Below are positions 31,874 through 56,384 of a stretch of DNA of 64,000 nucleotides, one piece after another (positions within the stretch are counted from its first letter, which is position 1; each line of letters opens with the position of its first letter). The notes beneath the pieces are model-generated. The model saw nothing but the letters and a program-made list of their open reading frames with translations, had not been told where the DNA came from and did not search any database. Source of the DNA: Sphagnum compactum (Eukaryota); contig OZ234494.1 of the NCBI GenBank assembly GCA_965153455.1, positions 11,098,001 through 11,162,000 on the forward strand, written 5' to 3'. The translations under genes and the position numbers were made by a program.

Positions 31874-32932
31874 AGAGATACGAGCGCGGTGAAGGAGGCG
31901 AGCCAAGAGGGGTGCGGGCGAGGGAGGGAGAGGCCAGTTGGGAACGAGAGCTGGGAAGCAGTCACTAGCGGCCAGCTGCAGCAGCTGTTCGCGCTTTTTG
32001 CATCTCTTCGCCGCAGAAGACTTGGTTTTGTAATCTCTCTCTTCTGTTCTACCTTTGCTTCCCATCTCTTTTCCTATCTCTCTCTTTGGTAGAACGCGTT
32101 TTGAATCTCTGTGCTCTTTACAGTCTCTCTTCTTCTTCTTCTTCTTCTAATTCTTCTGTGTCCTTGCTTTGCCTTTCGGAAAGCGGCTGAACGTCGTTTG
32201 CTGCTCGCCTAGGTTCTTCAGCTGGTCCACTGGGTTGCTGGTACATTCCTCCTACACATTCAGGCTAAAATTTTCTTTTTTTAAAATATTAGGGTTTTTG
32301 AATTTGTTTCCGTATTGCAGTTTTCGGGGAATCGAGACCACCGTGACAACACTTGTGTTTTCCAAGAAAACTCTGCTGAAAAGGACAAGGACGAGAACTT
32401 GTTGAAAGGTGCGTGAGAGAGCTCCTGAACCTAGCTTTCTTTCTTCCGTGACTATTGCTTTTGGTGGTTCGAGGGAGAGGTCTTGAAATCCTTTTCTCTC
32501 TTACTTGCGTAGTATGTTCTTCTTCTTCTTCTTCATCTTCTGGGAGTCTTTGGCATTCTCTCAGTTGCTGGGCTTGAATTACTGTAAGTCAGCTGCAAAA
32601 TTGGGTGATGGTTTTTTTTTCCTTGTTCTTGCTTCTCCTTCTCTTCGGTTCATGGGGTTTCGTGCTGTTTTTTTTTCACATGTGTTTCTCATGTGTAAGT
32701 ATGTGTGGAGAGAAATTGTTTGAGTGCAGTCTCAGCTCTCTGCCTTTTCATCTATGTATGGAGACTGCATTTTCGCTTGTGCTGATTCATTCCCACACAA
32801 ACAGATGGGCTACAGAAAATTCAGCTCCTCTCTGACATGTGTTCTCTTTTGGTCTCCATCTCACAAGCACAGACTCCCATTGAAGCCTGCAAAAAGCTCT
32901 ACAGACAAAAAAGAAAAGAAAAGCTGGACAAG

Positions 32933-35900
32933 ATGAGTTCAGGGACGGCTCCCTATGCCACTTTGAGTGATCTGCCTAGGTTTGAGAAGCGAGGCGAAGT
33001 CACATCTGCCCCTTGGATGAAGGAACAGGCTGTTCCTCACAATGGCCGGGCTCACAACCATGAGCCTTACATTACCTGCAACTCGCAGACTGCTCCTTTC
33101 GCTACTTTCCACAACCAGCCTCTTCCACTTGAGGTTAGGGTTCCTCCTCTCTGTCTCTTGAGCCATTGAACTTTTTGGTGAACTAGGTTCTTCCTCTCTC
33201 TTGAGCCCTTGATCTTTTTGTGAGTCTATTAGTAATGGGTTTTCTGCTGCTAGGTAGCTGCTGGAGTCTTAGCTGTGGTTCTTCAACAGGAAATTGTTCG
33301 CTGCTTTAAGGATGTGTTTCTTGTGGAAGACAATATGTGCCAAGAAGGGTTGGTTACCCATGTGTTCTGCTAACCATGGAAAGTTCACAAAAGAAACCTA
33401 GGTCAATAAGATTGATGGGTTGCAGAAGAAGATTAGTATGTCCATGAATGGAAATGAGAACAAGTATCATAGAAACCTACCAACAAGATTTATGGGTGAC
33501 AGAAGAAGAATAGTATGTTCATGAAAGGATATAAGAACAAGTATCAGGGGCCACAGTGCAGGTGCAGAGTATCTCTATCCTCTGAAACAGCACCTTTTGG
33601 AACCTCTGAGAACATTGTACAATTGAATCAGGCATGTCATCATTTCTCATATCCCCCTCCCCACTCCACCAAAATTCTTGGAATTGCTTAGGTTCAACAG
33701 TTCTCACAAATATCTGGAAGAAGGTGAAGGTTGGTGACTATCAACCTAAGTAGCTTTATGAAGTGAGATCTATGTTCATCCTCTAAATGGGTTTAGAATT
33801 ATGTTTCTCTTTCAGATGCTTGTTGCCCTCACACTTCATTTGCACTTATCTCCAAATAGCCTTCAAATTGAGTTTGGTTTTTTCTATTTTTCTCACTTCA
33901 CATCCATGTTCTCCAATGATGACCTTAGTGTATGTCAGGGAGCTGATTCTTCTCAGCTCTGTGCTAAAGCTCAGTATCTCTCTGTTTCAAACTCCTTGAA
34001 ACATGGTTGTGGCTAGAATATCTTTGTCTTTCTGGCAGTGTTTTTGCTGCGTATAGTGAGACAAGGACTAGAACCCTTGAGCATAATTTGTTCAACTGTT
34101 CCTTGTCTCAACATAATGCCTAATGGCAGTACACTGGACCAATGCTGGATGCTCCATGGGATAAGGATCAACAACAGGCAAACCAATGGCAAGGATCTCA
34201 TAGAGAGTACACCAAGTACTCCTTATGCAACTTCTGATGATAGGCAGGCATGTGCTACATTTTGTTTTAATCTTTTCAGTTATCTTCTCTCACTGAACAT
34301 GCAACTTCCAATCCTGGATGGAAATTGTGCATAGTAAACAATTTTCATCCAGCAGTTCAAAGGGTTTAGATGATCTGTTCCCAGAGAAGACTATTTCTTT
34401 GGGATAATAGACTTCAACCAAATTCGATAAGGACATAGAAAATCTTTCCAAGAATATGTCTACTGTATGCAATTTGCCTTGAGATTGGGTTAAACACTAT
34501 GTATGGAGAATAGTGGCCATAGTTGTGCAATAAAGTAGCTGAAATGAATCAATCCTCCAATATAAGGCTTGGTTCAGGATTGGGTTTGAGAATGTTGCCA
34601 GTACCTTAATATGTTGCCTAAAATATATGACATGCTCGGGATCAAAGTCAAGCAGCAGTCATAAAACAGGGAGGGATCCTTGTGAAGGTACCAGGTGTAT
34701 CATAACATGTGCATGCCATGATCAGACAGAAGAAGTACTAGTGCTGAGCCTGTTTTATTGTCACCTTCTTGCACTGCCCCATATGCAACATCTAGTAATT
34801 CTCTCATGCAAAATGTTCTTACATGCCCCCTATAAATCTACCCATGTCTTTTCCCTGTCTTAGAATTATGAGTTGAATCGTCTCTGAATGTTTGGACCAA
34901 TCTGAGGGTGAAGCCCTAGTCTTTGAAAACTGTTGAACCCCTTAACCTGTTTCTTTTGGTGCTTGTTTCAGCTGTTATCCCTGTTGACACATCTTATAAG
35001 AGTTTTTCAGTGTTTGTATACATACCATGTGGTGAGATAATGTTTGCTGGCTTTTGAGTCATGGTATTCAACAGATGTCTAAACTTTTGATATAGGCTCT
35101 TTCAAGAGGCAGTTTGTCTCATGACCAAATTGGACTCCTGCTCTCTGGGCCTAAAGGGAGAAAAAATTATGGGGGTTTGTTTCTGGCAGCCAAATAAATC
35201 AAAAGTGCAGCAAGCACCATGGGATCGTGATGAACTCAATGACACCAAGGTGCAATTTCATAACCTTGATTTGTTTCTCTCACCTTTTTACCTATACCTG
35301 TACTTAGAAGGAGAATATTCATGTTTTATCTTTGGAGTAGAAATGTTATTTTGTTATCAGGACCTAAGCAATTTCTGTACCTCCCATGCCCTATTATGCT
35401 CTTTGGGTTTAGGTATTGCCTGAAGCAATAGTTTTCTGGTGACCCAACAGATACAAAATTATCCATTTAGATGAGAAAGAAGGAAAGTATGTCTCAGGAG
35501 TATCCCTGCATTCACCTATTTCCATCATGTCCTCAGATTGAGTGCTTAGTTTTCTTGAAGACAGGATTTGTAGTTTCCACATCCAATGCCAGTAAGTGAA
35601 GATCTAGGTGGTCCTCTTTATGATTCTCATGGTATCTGATTTGCCACCTCATCTTTCTTTGATGTATTTGGGCACTAATGTCAATAATTGCACAATATGT
35701 TGATCTGACAATATGAGCAAGGCTTTTCACTCCTGAACTTTTTCTTTCACATGGATTGCAGCTAGTACATTTAAATGTGATATACAAAGGTAGTTGAGAT
35801 GTGGATGCTTGGAGACATACTGACAACAGGTTGGATTGTTGATTTAGGCGTCAAATCATCCGATTCCCAATCCTGCTCCATTTGCAACTGAGCCAATCGA

Positions 35901-35940
35901 TTCTTCGTCTGAAGATCCATGTCAAACTACTTTCACCTAA
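32933..35940 (+). CDS. Uncharacterised small protein with alternating AP[FY]AT / APW repeats (apparent frameshift in exon 2)
   Basis: Exons 32933-33133, 34130-34247 (118 nt, GC donor), 35190-35249 and 35848-35940 (stop TAA) carry TAPYATL, SAPWMKE, TAPFATF, DAPWDKD, TPYATS, QAPWDRD and PAPFATE. Exons 1, 3 and 4 have canonical phase-0 splice sites. Confidence 0.7.
33392..33545. repeat. Intronic tandem duplication (~77-79 bp x2)
   Basis: AGAAACCTA...AAGATT.ATGGGT..CAGAAGAAGA.TAGTATGT.CATGAA.GGA...AGAACAAGTATCA occurs twice. Confidence 0.8.
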
Positions 35941-37099
35941 GGGTGTGCAAAACCTCTCACCGCTTCATCTGCCTGTCTTGGATCAGTTCTGCGAGGTGGA
36001 GTTATTGTGTGTATACATGTGCAATTTGCAACTTGCTGGTAATGTTCATTAAGTGCTTTGAACAACCATTTTTCTCACAAAGGAAACCCCTTTTTGATCA
36101 ATATGCTTCTGCTGTTCTTAACATTAGTGCATCACTATGAGCAAAACTCTTATGCTCGGTGGGCATTTGGTGTGTAGTTCTGAGGCTAAGAAATGTGAAG
36201 ATATTAAGCTATGCTGTATTGGCTTTGATTTATCTTGTATCAACTATTGATCCTGAGTAATATCTCTATCAACTGAGCTGTGGTTTGCAAGGTATACAAT
36301 TGAATACTAAATCTGTCTTTTCCTATACATTCTATTGTGTCTACTAATTTTCTGAATATGTTTGTAGAGTTCTCCTTCTCTTTTTCTCTGGCAGCAGCAG
36401 CTTGGATAATGTAAGTGCTAATCAATAACTAAATTGAATTCTTCCATAAGATGGAAATTGTTTGTCTCATGCACTTATAGCATGCTTCTTCATAAGTTCA
36501 TGAACACAAACTGAATTGTTTTGTGCCTTTCAATGTTCCTTTGGTGTGTTTATATCCTGTTTATATCCTGCTGAAAAAATTAGTGTTGCAGTTCTACATC
36601 CAGCAGGAGGGACTAGGGATTGGAGTGGGGTTTAGCGTTTTAGGGTCCAGAACTTGAAAGTGAAGTCTGTCATGAATGTGGCTCGCAGGTTTTACATTAA
36701 ATATAATCAAATATTCAATGAAGGTTTTGGGAACATCAGCAGTATTTTTGTTAGACACTGGAAGAAACAAACACAAGTTTTGCAATCATATTCAAATAGA
36801 GCACATGCACAAACATGCAGAATTTCACTGACCCAACACCAGTAGCAGCAGATGCATTAATGTTTCCAATTTCCATTGTTGAACTATGAATAACAGATTT
36901 TAAAATTATGAGTGATGTATGTCTGCAAAAAGATGCCATTTATACAGAACTGTAGTTTGCAAAGTAGAGTTGTCAGTACACTAGTTGGTTCCCTTGAATC
37001 TAGAATGGAACAATACAATAACCTCCATAATATTATATCAGAATTTCTGAGGTAACTGTACAAGAAGAGAAAGGACATTTTCCCATTGCTACTAGAGAT

Positions 37100-38140
37100 T
37101 TAGCCATAGCAACGAATGGGATCAGTACACATTTTAGCTGCTGATTGTTGCTTTCCTCCTCCACCTCCCTTCTGGAGATACTGCTGGTGATATTCTTCAG
37201 CCATGTAGAAGGGACCAGCAGGCAAGATCTCGGTTGCAATCTTCTTCCAAAGATGGGACTGATGCTCTTTCGTTGATGCGATTGCTTCCTCCTTTTGTTC
37301 CGGTGTATGGAAGTAAATGCCTGATCGGTATTGTGATCCAACATCATTTCCCTGCCCAACAGAGTCATGTCAGGAAAGGAAATGACAGACTCAGACAAAA
37401 GCAATTCAATTCAATAAAGCACCCTGAGAGAAGTCATAAGAGGGAAAAGGAAAAAATCGGTGAGCAATAACATCATTGAAAGACAATCCATATGTGAGAA
37501 AGACAAGTCAAAGATTGAACAACAGGACTGAAGGTTGAAGACATGGTAAAGAGGGTTTAGGGTTTATGGAAGAGACATGGTGGAGACATGGTGAAGAGGG
37601 TTTAGGGTTTATGGAAGAGACATGGTGGAGACATGTTGAAGAGGGTTTAGGGAAGAGACGTGGTGAAGACGGTTTACGGAAGAGGCATGGTGAGAACAGA
37701 CATACCTGGCGGTTCACTTGGGTAGGATCGTGCTTCTTCCAGAAGACATCAAGCAATTGTTTGTAAGAGACTTGAGCAGGGTCATATTCCAGTTGTACAG
37801 CTTCTGTATGGCCTGTCCTGCCACTGCAGACTTGGCGGTATGTTGGATCCACCGTCTTGCCTCCTGTGTAACCGACTGCTGTCTGCACATCCGTAAGGCA
37901 AGCAAGCACACTGCCAACGATCAGTTCTACTGCCCATTTTCCATTTCCGTGACAACACCACCAAACGCTTGAAATCTTGGAGACAAGGGGAAAAGTTCTC
38001 CAACTAGGTACACAAAGAAGGAATTTTGTATTCTTCCGCGATGTGAATTTTTTTACCTTGATGACGCCAGGAACGCGCTGGAAAGCCAATTCGACGCTCC
38101 AGAAACAGCCGGCTGCAAATGTGGCTTGCTGCTGTGCCAT
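37100..38140 (-). CDS. MSRA: Peptide methionine sulfoxide reductase A (170 aa from the ATG at 38140)
   Basis: Exons 38140-38057, 37882-37706 and 37351-37100 (GT-AG, phase 0). Catalytic motif [57 protein letters not shown] and the plant C-terminus CTDPIRCYG*. Confidence 0.97.
37540..37695. repeat. 45-bp tandem repeat with telomere-like GGGTTTAGGGTTTA in MSRA intron 2
   Basis: GAGGGTTTAGGGTTTATGGAAGAGACATGGTGGAGACATG(G/T)TGAA at 37551 and 37596, with degenerate copies from 37641. Confidence 0.9.
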
Positions 38141-38786
38141 TTTCACTCTCCGAATAAAAAAATCCGAAAACAAAATCCGTGCACTACCTAACTACTAGTA
38201 CTACTCCCCTCTACACACAAAACAAGAAATTTTTTCTCTTTCTCTCTCTCGTGTCTGAACCCCAACAGCCCAAATCTCAATCTCCAAAAACTCAGCAAAG
38301 ATCTCACTCCCCAAAACTCCACCAGCCAGCCCAAAAAAAAACACTCGTTCCAAGGTTTCCGCTTTACGAAGACGTTCAAGATAACTCAAAATCAGACAAT
38401 TGAAATACATACAGTCTACAGAAGCAGGGTCAAATATATGCCAAGTGCACAGAGAGACGAGAAGAGTCGAGAAGCGAAGAGAAGAGACGAAGCACCCCAA
38501 GAAGAAGCAAAACAACAGCGAGAGAGGCGAGAGAGAGAGATCTGGGAAAGAAGAGTTCTCTTCGGGAGTAGTGTAGCGAAGGAGAGGAGCAGACGAAGCA
38601 TCATCGTCGGGCAGCAGAACGTCGGGCAGAAAAAAAAAGGAGTGAGTCATGGGAAATATAAGAAATATAGGCCTATGTTTAGGGTCAGTTTAGATGAGGG
38701 TCTAATGTCCAGGGTCCCATGAAATAGAGCAGTCCTATTGGCTGAGAGCCATAAATTGGACCCATGGCCTTTAGAGAGTGACCCAT

Positions 38787-53134: not shown

Positions 53135-53571
53135 CTGCATTCCCATTCTGCCTCTGCTACTTATCTGCAAACAGAACCCAATTTTACCCCAAAATTCACA
53201 CTTGTTGATCTCCCTGGACCAGCTAGCCTTCAGTCTTCAACATAGCTCCAGTCCAGGCTCAGTCTGGGTCCAGTTGCTGGACAGGTAACTTTCCTCAGCT
53301 CTGGTACCTTGAGAAAGCAAAAGAGTTTCAGTACAAACAGTCGCCAGCAATATTTGTCCTTAGTCTCTCAGGTCACAAGTTCGTCAAAGTTGAGCTGATG
53401 TGAAGTGGGTTCTGTGGAACTTGTCTGAGTTTGAATCACTTAGATGTGGAGAGAATTGCTCTTGGATCTCCAAGGAGTAGAGTTCTAAAGAAACATGTTT
53501 GGGTGAGAATTGTGTTGAGAGATAGACCTGGTATTGATCTGGATTGAACTTTTGTCACTGTAACCAGGGTG

Positions 53572-56384
53572 ATGGCAAAGACTGGCTCTCTAGCCTTGAC
53601 GGATATGGTTGATGGGAGTGATCCAATCATCAGCAAGAAGAATCATGTGGCAGCACTTGAATCAAGTCTCTGCATAGGTAGTGTTGTGATTGAATCAGAA
53701 ACCAGCTGCTCAGATCCTCTTCGATGGGCTCGAGCAGCTGCAGAGTTACAATGCAGCCATTTAGAGGAGGTGAGAGGTATGGTGAAGACATTCACTGAGT
53801 GCAAGGAGGTGGTGCTTGAGGGTGTGAGCTTGACTGCCGCCCATGTGGCTGCAGTTGCTCGGCGACTGGAAGTAAGAGTGGTGTTGGATATTGCTGTTGC
53901 GAAGACCAGAGTGGACAAAAGCTCCAATTGGGTGCTTTCAAAAATCATGAAAGGTTCTGACATCTATGGTGTCACCACTGGATTTGGAGCAACCTCTCAT
54001 CGCCGCACTCAGCAAGGAGTAGAGCTCCAGAAGGAGCTCATCAGGTGCCTTGTTTCATGGGTCTTGAATCTCATTCAACTCCTGCTTCACACAATGGCCC
54101 AAACATAAGAGCCTCTGTTCTGTGCTTGAATCCTCTGTGCTGCTTGTGGAAGAAATACTGCTGGTTGTCATGAGTGGAATTTTTCTGACCTTGAGTTTTG
54201 GCGAACAGATTTTTGAATGCAGGAGTGTTTGGAAAGGGTGATGCAGATACGCTTCCTGCATGCACAACGCGAGCAGCTATGTTGGTGCGCACTAACACGC
54301 TGCTCCAAGGCTACTCAGGCATTCGCTGGGAAATTTTGGAGGCAATGGAGAAGCTCCTGAATGCTCATGTGACACCGAAGTTGCCACTTCGAGGCACCAT
54401 TTCATCATCAGGAGACCTTGTTCCCTTGTCATACATTGCTGGTGTGTTGTGTCAAACATGTCTGTGTGTGTCTGATGAACTCTCTATTATGCAAATTGCA
54501 TGCAACACTAGTTTTGCAGTTGAAGAACTTTGAAATGTTCTGGTTACAGTTTTGGGTCACATTTCATTCAATTGCAGGGCTTCTCACTGCAAGACCAAAC
54601 TCAAGAGCAATCACCAAGGATGGTTCTGAAGTATCAGGCGAGATTGCTCTCAGGCTTGCTGGAATACAAAAGCCATTTGAGTTGCAGCCAAAGGAAGGAC
54701 TTGCAATGGTGAATGGAACAGCCGTGGGTTCTGCCTTGGCATGCACTGCATGCTTCGATGCCAATGTGCTGGTCCTGCTTGCTGAAGTCCTTTCAGCTCT
54801 CTTTTGTGAGGTGATGCAGGGGAAGCCTGAATTTGCAGATCCCTTGACTCACAAACTGAAGCATCACCCAGGTCAAATTGAGGCTGCAGCCATCATGGAA
54901 TGGCTCCTTGCTGGAAGCTCATACATGAAGGCAGCTGCAAAACTGCATGAGACTGATCCTTTGAAGAAACCCAAGCAGGACCGTTATGCTCTTCGTACTT
55001 CCCCACAATGGCTCGGTCCTCAGGTACCATCACCAAGCAAATCACTGTTTTGTTGTGTTCGTTTCTTGACACCTCTGAGCCTTTCATCCCTGCTTGAACA
55101 ACAACAAAGCAGGGATTTTGTTCAAAATCCCCACTTTGTCATTGTTCAGAGATTTCTTTCTTGGCAAAATATCTTCTCTCTGGTCACACTGAATGCAAGC
55201 ACTAGGATCAGGAAAAAGATGTGCAAGAAAAGAGTTGCAAAAGATGACGAAGCCAAAAGGGATGTTACCAGCAAGAAGCAACTGATGGTCTCTGGTGTTG
55301 TCAGGTAGAGGCAATACGGTATGCCACACATGCCATCCAGAGGGAGATCAATTCAGTAAATGACAACCCACTCATTGATGCTGCAGGAGACAGGGCTGTC
55401 CATGGTGGAAACTTCCAAGGAACCGCCATCGGGGTCTCAATGGACAACTTACGGCTGGCCATTGCTGCTATTGGCAAGCTCATGTTTGCACAATTCTCTG
55501 AGCTTGTGAATGATTATTACAACAATGGGCTGCCTTCAAACCTCAGTGGAGGGCCTAATCCAAGCCTGGATTATGGCATGAAGGGAGCAGAGATAGCTAT
55601 GGCTTCATATCTCTCAGAACTTAACTACCTTGCGAATCCAGTGACAACCCATGTTCAAAGTGCTGAGCAACACAACCAGGATGTGAACTCTCTTGGGTTG
55701 GTGTCTGCACGCAAGACAGAAGAATCCATCCAAATTCTGAAGCTCATGAGTTCAACATACCTGGTGGCTCTTTGCCAGGCAATTGATCTGCGCCATATCG
55801 AGGAGATGATGCAGGCCACTGTAAAGCAAATTGTTGCACAAGTGGCAAAGAAGACTTTGTTTGCAGGAGCAGATGGCACTCTTCTACCATCACAATTTGC
55901 TGAGAAGGATCTACTGCAGGTAGTGGACCATCAACCACCATTCACATACATCGACAATGCTTCCAGCCAGACTTACCCACTCATGGAAAAGCTCCGACAA
56001 GTGCTAGTTGAGCACACACTCAAGAGCTCCACCAGTGAGAACCCTGCACCCACCTCCATTTTCCACAAAATCTCCAACTTCGAGGAGGAGCTGAAGGAGA
56101 GGTTAGATGCTGAAGTTCCTCATGTGCGAGAAGCATATGACAACAACAAGGGTTACTCCCCAGTTCCCAACAGAATTACAGATTGTCGGACATACCCTCT
56201 CTACAGATTTGTTCGCTCTGAACTCCAAACCCAGCTACTGTCAGGCTTGCAGACCATCTCTCCTGGTGAAGAGATTGAAAAGGTCTATGAAGCTATCTTG
56301 GATGGCAAACACGTTGCCCCTTTGATGCAGTGCATTGATGGCTGGACTGGAGTTCCAGGTCCTTTTCTCTGCAGATCTATCTAA
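53572..56384 (+). CDS. PAL: Phenylalanine ammonia-lyase, 743 aa, 4 coding exons, Ser-Ser-Gly MIO triad
   Basis: Exons 53572-54044, 54209-54441, 54578-55023 and 55305-56384 total 2232 nt in an open frame. Motifs [76 protein letters not shown] and [13 protein letters not shown]. Confidence 0.97.

What the first reader, a model, noticed from the sequence alone, without database searches (positions are those of the whole stretch)
32933..35940. Unannotated small protein built from strictly alternating AP[FY]AT and APW[DM]x[DE] motifs
No single ORF reveals this gene. Four short exons spread over 3 kb carry the same motif pair in the order APYAT - APWMKE - APFAT - APWDKD - TPYAT - APWDRD - APFAT, separated by low-complexity polar linkers of ~15-30 aa. 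I recognise no folded domain. This looks like a disordered, multivalent short-linear-motif protein. One hypothesis (inference only) is a microtubule or flagellar lattice-binding repeat protein, which would fit a plant with motile sperm. A scaffold for some other polymeric partner is equally possible.
Basis: partly seen in the sequence, partly recalled or inferred. Interest (0 to 1): 0.75.

Follow-up and report, generated by a model that had tools for sequence, protein, structure and literature searches.

The report
Disordered five-motif moss protein, three coding exons

Summary
The motifs are real: 8 strict matches lie on the + strand at 32948-35889, against a mean of 0.05 in 200 shuffles. The four-exon model is wrong. 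It is 472 nt and out of frame, with the frame breaking inside exon 2. Stranded poly(A) RNA reads join 33133 to 35190 (88 reads) and 35249 to 35848 (98 reads). No read joins 34130 or 34247. The true CDS is 32933-33133 + 35190-35249 + 35848-35940. It encodes 117 aa with the motif order APYAT-APWMKE-APFAT-APWDRD-APFAT, and is 117/117 identical to an annotated Sphagnum compactum product. The protein is predicted to be unfolded and matches no Pfam or PDB entry. Homologues occur in mosses, liverworts, a hornwort and the streptophyte algae Klebsormidium, Chara, Coleochaete and Netrium. No named vascular plant or chlorophyte was found. Netrium has no flagella, which weakens the flagellar idea. One liverwort homologue carries an automatic "RITA1, tubulin-associated" label, which no test here supported. 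The most likely role is a multivalent linear-motif docking protein with an unknown partner.

The parts
31947..32408 (+). Non-coding first exon (5' UTR). The donor follows 32408.
   Evidence: The spliced metatranscriptome contig L004 aligns to 31947-32408, then jumps to 32871/3. 95 X24 reads carry a loose end before 32871, and its consensus matches window 32378-32406, followed by ag|gtgcgt. The 5' limit is taken from a relative's contig and is not mapped in this species.
32873..33133 (+). Exon 2, the first coding exon. The ATG is at 32933. It encodes 67 aa carrying APYAT, APWMKE and APFAT, and ends in phase 0 before gt.
   Evidence: (X24 bin depths 87-139).
33134..35189 (+). Intron of 2,056 nt that contains three relics of former coding exons.
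   Evidence: Junction 33133/35190, GT..AG, 88 reads at 44 start places in X24 and one X1 contig. The spliced contig L004 shows the same junction.
33548..33631 (+). Relic exon A (APFGT). An 84-nt, phase 0-0 open frame is possible, with a GC donor (CAG|gcatgt). It may be used at a low level.
   Evidence: tblastn shows 33578-33631 is collinear with Ceratodon residues 152-169 and S. balticum long-form residues 134-151. 5 reads (3 starts) join 33631 to 35190, against 88 for the main junction. Depth is 3.3-5.3 over 33246-33668. The acceptor at 33547 is inferred, not observed.
34130..34247 (+). APWDKD and TPYAT are in different frames after a 2-nt deletion. It has a GC donor and is not spliced in.
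   Evidence: depth 2.8, no junctions. It is 63% identical to Ceratodon residues 169-198, E 1.4e-6. 5 of 5 orthologous genomic loci have two extra bases (AA) after 34213, giving 120 nt. Two of these, L005 and L006, carry an in-frame TAA and a changed donor instead.
34731..34799 (+). Relic exon C (APYAT), with an upstream in-frame stop.
   Evidence: Weak collinear tblastn matches to the fifth-exon type of the long forms, E 0.16-4. Conserved in the orthologous loci at the intron rate. This is the weakest of the three relics.
35190..35249 (+). Exon 3, the second coding exon: 20 aa with APWDRD, phase 0-0.
35250..35847 (+). Intron of 598 nt.
   Evidence: Junction 35249/35848, GT..AG, 98 reads at 55 start places. 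L004 agrees.
35848..36340 (+). Last exon. It encodes 30 aa with APFAT, has its stop at 35938-35940, and continues as 3' UTR.
   Evidence: X24 depth is 81-115 up to 36065, 61 to 36206, 12.5 to 36347 and 0 beyond. A relative's contig, L004, runs on to 36750, so the 3' end is approximate.

Best explanation
The locus is an expressed nuclear gene of a Sphagnum moss with four exons, the first of them non-coding. It encodes a 117-aa, 13-kDa, proline-rich protein with no fold.

Shown:
- The exon structure.
- The strand.
- The identity of the product to an annotated S. compactum protein.
- A family, deposited in public databases without a function, that runs from Klebsormidium, Chara, Coleochaete and Netrium through a hornwort and liverworts to mosses.
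- A conserved core order Y-W-Y-W-Y, where Y is AP[FY][AG]T and W is APWx[KR][DE]. The first Y lies 5-20 residues from the N-terminus and the last Y lies at or near the C-terminus.
- Long moss paralogues in which internal exons encode W...Y units or parts of them.
- Dead remnants of three such exons inside this gene's large intron.

Inferred mechanism: the protein is a multivalent linear-motif ligand. Only the motifs are conserved over this span, and the linkers vary freely in length and sequence. Each motif is therefore most likely a docking peptide for a pocket on one or two folded partners. Valency would be set by gain, loss or skipping of internal exons. The exon boundaries I could check (window exons, relic A, and the intact form of relic B) are phase 0-0, so dropping an exon keeps the frame. 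This gene would be a minimal-valency copy derived from a longer one. The partner is unknown, and tubulin is one candidate.
For: Gene model:
- junctions of 88 and 98 reads. The first mate falls almost only on the - strand of a stranded library, so the RNA is from the + strand.
- the spliced contig L004 has the same four blocks and a 117-aa ORF.
- the product is 117/117 identical to P0084 (S. compactum).
- of the 15 members listed for the 16-member 90% cluster, 8 are 117 aa, and none of the 9 sequences I read contains exon B.

Family:
- 13 of 19 candidates at E<=0.01.
- an exhaustive phmmer of 1.84 billion representatives with exon 1 found 24 at E<=0.001. I discard one of these as chance, the 1,679-aa repeat protein P0030.
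- 54 at E<=0.01 among 2,480 candidates.
- 54 at E<=1 among 2,146 candidates, including Netrium (1.3e-16), Klebsormidium (1.9e-5) and Chara (1.5e-2).
- One search also gave Coleochaete at 2.2e-6.
- supply the organism names.

Motif conservation:
- invariant or >=90% conserved columns are M1, P7, Y8, A9, T10, A26, P27, W28, A54, P55 and P77.
- 19 of 35 family proteins alternate strictly, and 12 of 35 are exactly Y-W-Y-W-Y.

Disorder.

Exon modularity and relics:
- paralogue C (locus L024) has seven collinear blocks matching P0010, and paralogue B (L018) has six.
- collinear relics in the window.
- the relics diverge from orthologue L001 at 7/241 = 2.9%, the rest of the intron at 60/1815 = 3.3%, and coding exon 1 at 3/201 = 1.5%. 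Exon B carries a 2-nt deletion here and a TAA in L005/L006, which are independent lesions.
- the window's exons are phase 0-0, and relics A and B have GC donors.
Against: - No partner, localisation or phenotype is known for any member. The docking mechanism rests only on the conservation pattern.
- Alternation is not strict across the family. 16 of 35 members have runs of one motif type, such as six W in a row in P0049 or five Y in a row in P0094. The alternation itself may therefore not be functional.
- AlphaFold gives pLDDT 70-90 for 32 residues, mainly in residues 11-30. Some local structure or binding-induced folding is possible.
- Evenly spaced aromatic residues in polar linkers would fit condensate-forming "stickers" equally well.
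- The 2-nt deletion in relic B is supported on the RNA side by a single X24 read, so an assembly error there cannot be excluded. This would not change the fact that the exon is skipped.
- The phases of the long paralogues' internal exons were not worked out exactly. One search printed tblastn block ends, not verified splice sites.
Confidence: 0.6

Rival explanations
1. The family is a divergent plant branch of the animal RITA1 family. It would bind tubulin or coat microtubules through its repeated motifs, which is the reader's lattice-binding idea without the flagellum.
For: - UniRef names the Riccia fluitans homologue P0024 "RBPJ-interacting and tubulin-associated protein 1".
- RITA is described as a small protein that binds tubulin and coats microtubules (abstract listings; passages of PMC11747798).
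- Most algal and liverwort members are basic. The family median pI is 9.0 over 31 proteins, as is usual for lattice binders (recalled).
- From memory only, animal RITA also has aromatic motifs and a Pro-Trp motif in a disordered chain.
Against: - Pfam found no family at all for the 5 window pieces. For 11 homologues and 28 aligned members it gave only isolated sub-threshold matches at E<=10, none of them RITA.
- The PDB profile search returned 0 hits at E<=10.
- Only 1 of the roughly 20 named homologues carries the label. Three members of this gene's own 90% cluster are named "DNA modification methylase" by another source, which shows how unreliable automatic names are here.
- The literature passage I read says RITA is conserved in deuterostomes including Placozoa and is absent from insects (PMC6337844).
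- A search for the RITA name together with "plant" found 0 papers.
- The window's own protein is acidic (pI 5.4).
Confidence: 0.15
2. The protein is an abundant hydrophilic protectant or a condensate-forming "sticker and spacer" protein of poikilohydric streptophytes. Its aromatic motifs would act by weak multivalent self-association or association with clients, not by specific docking.
For: - The protein is strongly hydrophilic and unfolded.
- The transcript is present in 16 listed RNA runs, with exon contig depths of 363-543 in metatranscriptome X1.
- The family is found in streptophyte algae and bryophytes, with no named vascular-plant hit.
- Motif copy number varies freely.
Against: - No LEA, dehydrin or other hydrophilin family is hit in Pfam.
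- Glycine is only 3 of 117 residues. Hydrophilins are glycine-rich (recalled criterion).
- The motifs are conserved letter for letter (AP-Y-A-T, A-P-W) over a span that includes Klebsormidium. That is more than generic stickers need.
- Contig depth is a poor measure of expression, as one search's own caveat says.
Confidence: 0.15
3. The protein is a sperm flagellum or basal-body lattice protein.
For: No named seed-plant homologue was found in four searches. The family is present in Coleochaete, Chara and bryophytes, all of which make flagellate cells (established knowledge).
Against: - It is present in Netrium digitus, a zygnematophyte. That class has no flagella (established knowledge).
- No chlorophyte, lycophyte or fern hit carried a name, although those lineages have flagella.
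- The transcript is readily found in bulk poly(A) RNA and in field moss metatranscriptomes.
Confidence: 0.04
4. The reader's four-exon, seven-motif protein is the true product in this genome.
For: Exon B has an AG acceptor and a possible GC donor, and is in frame (120 nt) in three related loci, L001-L003.
Against: - It is out of frame in this genome.
- There are no junction reads and only background depth.
- It is absent from the 9 cluster sequences I read and from the spliced contig L004.
Confidence: 0.02

Closest known systems
Deposited but uncharacterised orthologues and homologues: Sphagnum compactum CAM6043091.1, S. fallax KAH8970227.1, S. magellanicum KAH9571125.1, Marchantia polymorpha Mp3g19650 (MARPO_0049s0069), Physcomitrium patens LOC112280867, Ceratodon purpureus M758_6G204700, Klebsormidium nitens KFL_001740100, Chara braunii CBR_g21023
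   Same: The S. compactum product has the same sequence (117/117). The others share the same motif core and order.
   Different: None has a described function or a Pfam family. The long moss forms (287-308 aa) carry 11-13 motifs against 5 here.
RITA1 (RBPJ-interacting and tubulin-associated protein 1) of animals
   Same: Both are small proteins. One liverwort homologue carries this name automatically. RITA binds tubulin and coats microtubules (passages).
   Different: Pfam gave no RITA match. The hydrophobic-W-hydrophobic-P motif by which RITA binds RBPJ (passage of PMC6337844) is absent: here W is preceded by P and followed by M or D, then K or R. The literature I read places RITA in animals only.
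Endocytic accessory proteins with repeated DPW/DPF/NPF motifs in disordered tails, such as epsin and Eps15 (recalled, analogy only)
   Same: Many copies of a three-residue aromatic-proline motif are spaced by polar disordered linkers, and act by multivalent docking to a folded domain.
   Different: Those proteins have folded N-terminal domains, and their motif is D/N-P-aromatic. Here there is no folded domain and the motifs are A-P-aromatic with fixed flanks. No homology was tested or claimed.
SPIRAL1, a small plant microtubule-associated protein (recalled, analogy only)
   Same: Both are small, unfolded plant proteins whose conserved motif sits at both ends of a variable linker.
   Different: The motif sequence is different. 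SPIRAL1 is present in seed plants. There was no Pfam hit of any kind here.

Membership tests
Unnamed streptophyte Y-W-Y-W-Y family (Sphagnum CAM6043091.1, Mp3g19650, LOC112280867) | Significant profile match over the whole length | tested here: met
   The 117-aa orthologue cluster P0054 scores E 1.5e-32 against profile A2 and 1.1e-33 against A3. The window's product is 117/117 identical to cluster member P0084.
Unnamed streptophyte Y-W-Y-W-Y family | N-terminal AP[YF]AT, then APWxK[DE] about 20 residues on, then AP[FY][AG]T, then APW[DE]R[DE], then a near-C-terminal AP[FY]AT | tested here: met
   The window's product reads APYAT, APWMKE, APFAT, APWDRD, APFAT in that order (alignment).
RITA (Pfam PF17066; accession recalled) | Match to the family model | tested here: not met
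   No match to this family at E<=10 in 5 window pieces, 11 homologues or 28 aligned members. HMMER filters drop most matches above about E 0.1, so a very weak similarity is not excluded. The PANTHER model that may lie behind the UniRef name could not be run.
RITA | RBPJ-binding tetrapeptide: hydrophobic-W-hydrophobic-P | tested here: not met
   The motif is defined in a passage of PMC6337844. The window's two W sites read P-W-M-K and P-W-D-R.
RITA | Binds tubulin or microtubules | not testable with these tools
This needs co-sedimentation or imaging.
Flagellar or ciliary proteins | Phylogenetic profile restricted to lineages with flagellate cells | tested here: not met
   There is a homologue in Netrium digitus (Zygnematophyceae). 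No named chlorophyte, lycophyte or fern hit was found.
Flagellar or ciliary proteins | Expression confined to antheridia or sperm | tested here: inconclusive
   The transcript is present in bulk poly(A) RNA and in 16 listed RNA runs, but the tissues sampled are not known to me.
LEA proteins / hydrophilins | Match to a LEA or dehydrin family, or a high glycine content together with high hydrophilicity (criterion recalled) | tested here: not met
   No Pfam LEA family was hit. Glycine is 3 of 117 residues, although GRAVY is -0.95.

The most novel reading that the evidence does not exclude
This would be the plant branch of an ancient eukaryotic family of unfolded tubulin-binding proteins that includes animal RITA1. 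The AP-aromatic and APW motifs would be the ancestral tubulin-docking elements. RBPJ binding would be a later animal addition. Vascular plants would have lost the family, or diverged beyond recognition.
Probability: 0.1. Interest if true: 0.7.

Novelty: new variant of a known kind. Interest (0 to 1): 0.45.

Why it matters
The family is small and easy to test. Its only conserved parts, from Klebsormidium to mosses, are two five- to six-residue motifs. It has no Pfam entry. I found no paper on it: the gene-identifier search returned 0 papers, and the motif-string search returned only 2 irrelevant ones. No named vascular-plant member appeared. Single-copy short forms in Marchantia (110 aa) make knockouts and motif mutants straightforward, and the motifs are natural baits for finding an unknown conserved partner. 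The locus also shows valency evolving by exon gain and death. Long paralogues keep their internal motif-bearing exons, while this copy keeps three decaying ones inside its intron. Different lesions hit the same dead exon in different Sphagnum lineages. For annotation, it warns that motif-bearing open frames inside introns can be relics.

Tried and rejected
- Own-genome search: no genome is held for this window.
- ESM Atlas: no usable feature hit for the Ceratodon or Riccia homologues. The structural rows all had TM below 0.5 to unrelated folds.
- PDB profile search: 0 hits at E<=10.
- Pfam: only isolated sub-threshold matches, each in 1 of the proteins scanned (DUF1467, BH3, DUF6264, DUF4512, NAM-associated, Molybdopterin_N, Bin2_C). 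I rejected them as noise.
- P0030, a 1,679-aa repeat protein at E 4.5e-4, was rejected as a chance match after reading it.
- Earlier findings of this scan: nothing by place, sequence or words.
- Literature:
  - The gene identifiers of the Marchantia and Physcomitrium homologues returned 0 papers.
  - The motif strings returned 2 irrelevant papers.
  - "RBPJ-interacting and tubulin-associated" with "plant" returned 0 papers.
  - "RITA1" with "cilia" returned 9 papers. Judged from the listing alone, none is about the family's distribution.
  - The two primary RITA papers are not held, so I know the RITA domain map only from passages in PMC6337844 and PMC11747798 and from recall.
- Cluster members of 159 and 172 aa might have been exon-B isoforms. 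They are the 117-aa ORF with the 5' UTR read through.
- Divergence in the relics against the intron does not separate them. I report this as consistent with neutrality, not as proof.
- No complex prediction was run, because no candidate partner sequence was available.
Full report
**1. What is in the sequence**

I scanned all six frames of the 64-kb window with the strict pattern AP[FY][AG]T or APWx[KR][DE]. It found 8 matches, all on the + strand between 32948 and 35889. 200 shuffles of the window gave a mean of 0.05 matches and never more than 1. A looser pattern added TPYAT at 34218 and four scattered matches elsewhere in the window. The cluster is therefore not chance.

**2. The gene model**

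The break is inside exon 2 (34130-34247, 118 nt). APWDKD is read in the frame that enters from exon 1, and that frame stops at TGA 34235-34237. TPYAT is in the frame that leaves towards 35190.

I laid four public runs on 32400-36600. Run X24 holds raw, stranded poly(A) reads with the same species label.

| Junction (run X24) | Splice sites | Reads | Start places |
|---|---|---|---|
| 33133 / 35190 | GT..AG | 88 | 44 |
| 35249 / 35848 | GT..AG | 98 | 55 |
| 33631 / 35190 (minor) | GC..AG | 5 | 3 |
| 33133 / 34130 or 34247 / 35190 | - | none listed (threshold 3) | - |

- A contig of metatranscriptome X1 carries the 33133/35190 joint as well.
- Depth over 34092-34232 is 2.8, which is intron background (0.2-5.7). 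The exon-rich bins reach 81-139.
- Nearly all first mates lie on the - strand, as expected for RNA from the + strand in the usual stranded library.
- 95 reads have a loose end before 32871. Its consensus matches window 32378-32406, followed by a GT donor. There is therefore a non-coding first exon.
- A 1,671-nt spliced metatranscriptome contig, L004, found independently, aligns as 31947-32408 | 32873-33133 | 35190-35249 | 35848-36750 and holds a 117-aa ORF.

The CDS is therefore 201 + 60 + 93 = 354 nt, or 117 aa. The motif order is APYAT, APWMKE, APFAT, APWDRD, APFAT.

This product is identical, 117 of 117, to P0084, an "unnamed protein product" of Sphagnum compactum. It is 111-113 of 117 identical to products of the same length from S. 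fallax, S. magellanicum, S. jensenii, S. troendelagicum and S. balticum. The gene is thus annotated in public records, but only as hypothetical or unnamed.

**3.

tblastn with the long homologues shows that the 2,056-nt intron holds three collinear remnants of exons that the long forms still use. The homologues were Ceratodon purpureus (308 aa) and Sphagnum balticum (287 aa).

| Relic | Window coordinates | Matches | Strength |
|---|---|---|---|
| A | 33578-33631 (SSETAPFGTSENIVQLNQ) | Ceratodon residues 152-169 | E 0.84; collinear |
| C | 34731-34799 | APYAT end of the next exon type | E 0.16-4; weakest |

- In metagenomic loci of two long Sphagnum paralogues, L018 and L024, the matching blocks lie about 0.1 to 1 kb apart. 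Most carry an APW...AP[FY]xT unit or part of one.
- I aligned five orthologous genomic loci (L001-L003, L005, L006; about 94% identical) to the window. All five have two extra bases (AA) after 34213, which makes relic B 120 nt long.
- L001-L003 are then open in frame. L005 and L006 carry an in-frame TAA and a changed donor.
- The window has the 2-nt deletion instead. The same run-laying shows the AA insertion in contigs of X18, X19 and X1.
- Different lesions in different lineages fit a dead exon. So does a divergence equal to the intron's: 7/241 in the relics, 60/1815 in the rest of the intron, and 3/201 in coding exon 1, all against L001.
- Relics A and B both have GC donors (CAG|gcatgt), while the exons in use have GT.
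- Relic A may still be used a little. 5 reads join 33631 to 35190, and an 84-nt phase 0-0 frame is possible. Its acceptor was not observed.

**4. The family**

I ran four searches.

| Query and method | Result |
|---|---|
| Exon 1 against longer proteins | 13 of 19 candidates at E<=0.01 |
| Exhaustive phmmer of 1.84 billion representatives | 24 at E<=0.001 (one discarded as chance after reading it) |
| Profile A2 | 54 at E<=0.01 among 2,480 candidates |
| Profile A3 | 54 at E<=1 among 2,146 candidates |

The named members are:

- Mosses: seven Sphagnum species, Ceratodon purpureus and Physcomitrium patens.
- Liverworts: Marchantia polymorpha and M. paleacea, Riccia fluitans and R. sorocarpa, Calypogeia fissa.
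- Hornwort: Nothoceros aenigmaticus.
- Streptophyte algae: Coleochaete scutata, Netrium digitus, Klebsormidium nitens and K. subtile, Chara braunii and C. vulgaris.

No named vascular plant or chlorophyte appeared. Three of the four searches depend on shared five-residue words, and the exhaustive one used a single 67-aa query. Absence is therefore suggestive, not proven.

Alignments show that only motif residues and the initiator Met are invariant or nearly so. Among 35 family proteins, 12 read exactly Y-W-Y-W-Y and 19 alternate strictly. The other 16 have runs of one type, up to six W or five Y. Alternation is therefore the core state, not a rule.

Metagenome loci show at least four paralogues in Sphagnum. 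Their exon 1 is 97-99%, 75-78%, 66% and 60% identical to the query. Reads of the roughly 77% paralogue are visible in X24 as replaced or loose segments.

**5. Nature of the protein**

- The protein is 13.0 kDa, with pI 5.4 and GRAVY -0.95. It has 16 Pro, 11 Thr, 11 Ala and 10 Ser, and only 15 residues of I/L/V/M/C.
- AlphaFold2 on a 28-row alignment, headed by the identical P0084, gives pTM 0.15 and mean pLDDT 63, with no secondary-structure element of useful length.
- The ESM Atlas model of the Ceratodon homologue has pLDDT 0.33.
- Pfam gave no match for the window pieces and only isolated sub-threshold matches for the homologues. The PDB gave none.

**6. Function**

Nothing is known experimentally for any member that I could find. 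My preferred mechanism is specific multivalent docking to a folded partner. I infer it from letter-perfect motif conservation across freely varying linkers, with copy number set by exon gain and loss.

The flagellar idea is weakened. Netrium belongs to a class without flagella (plus established knowledge). Chlorophyte hits are lacking. The transcript is also easy to find in bulk and field RNA.

The microtubule idea has one lead, the UniRef name "RBPJ-interacting and tubulin-associated protein 1" on the Riccia homologue.

- I could not reproduce it. Pfam gave no RITA match, and the protein lacks RITA's RBPJ-binding tetrapeptide (motif from a passage of PMC6337844).
- That paper places RITA in animals only.
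- Three members of this gene's own cluster are automatically called "DNA modification methylase", so such names carry little weight here.
- Net charge does not decide the matter. The family's median pI is 9.0, but the range is 5.2-10.1, and this copy is acidic.

**7. Verdict**

The motifs, the family and two of the four exons are fully right, and a third is right except for its acceptor partner. The fourth is a dead relic. The gene is real and ordinary in structure. Its family is uncharacterised, old and compact enough to be worth a knockout and a partner screen.

Noticed in passing
window 37508-38191 (- strand): An open frame with a strong match to peptide methionine sulfoxide reductase (PMSR, E 1.8e-33). 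It is probably an exon of a neighbouring gene.
   Followed up: no
window 53548-56384 (+ strand): Three consecutive open frames match successive parts of the aromatic amino acid lyase family (profile positions 1-73, 154-283 and 283-464 of 466). This looks like a phenylalanine ammonia-lyase-type gene with introns.
   Followed up: no
window about 33405-33547: Two adjacent copies of a unit of about 75 nt lie just upstream of relic exon A, seen on reading. blastn against loci L005 and L006 gives a second, 83% match for 33471-33546. Low RNA depth (3-5) covers this part of the intron.
   Followed up: no
window 35235-35856, 35187 and 35896-35906 (reads of run X24): 31 reads replace 22 letters across the last junction. 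Loose ends at 35187 (15 reads) and at 35896/35906 (26 reads) carry the sequence of the roughly 77% paralogue (the P0003 type). That paralogue is therefore expressed too, and also joins its exon 1 directly to the APWDR exon.
   Followed up: partly
loci L016-L021 (paralogue B) and L022-L025 (paralogue C): Sphagnum keeps two long paralogues with six to seven motif-bearing blocks. The paralogue B unit at L018 7857-7997 also ends in CAG|gcatgc, a GC donor like the window's relics. Public products for paralogue B are only 88-90 aa; the 88-aa one I read is exon 1 read through into the intron. That gene may be mis-modelled, or decaying as well.
   Followed up: partly
window 32507-32546: A simple TTC/GAA-type repeat in the first intron. 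The read-laying tool skipped it as a repeat.
   Followed up: no
protein cluster of P0054: Three members of the 90% cluster of this 117-aa protein are named "DNA modification methylase" by one source. This is an evident annotation error that could propagate.
   Followed up: no
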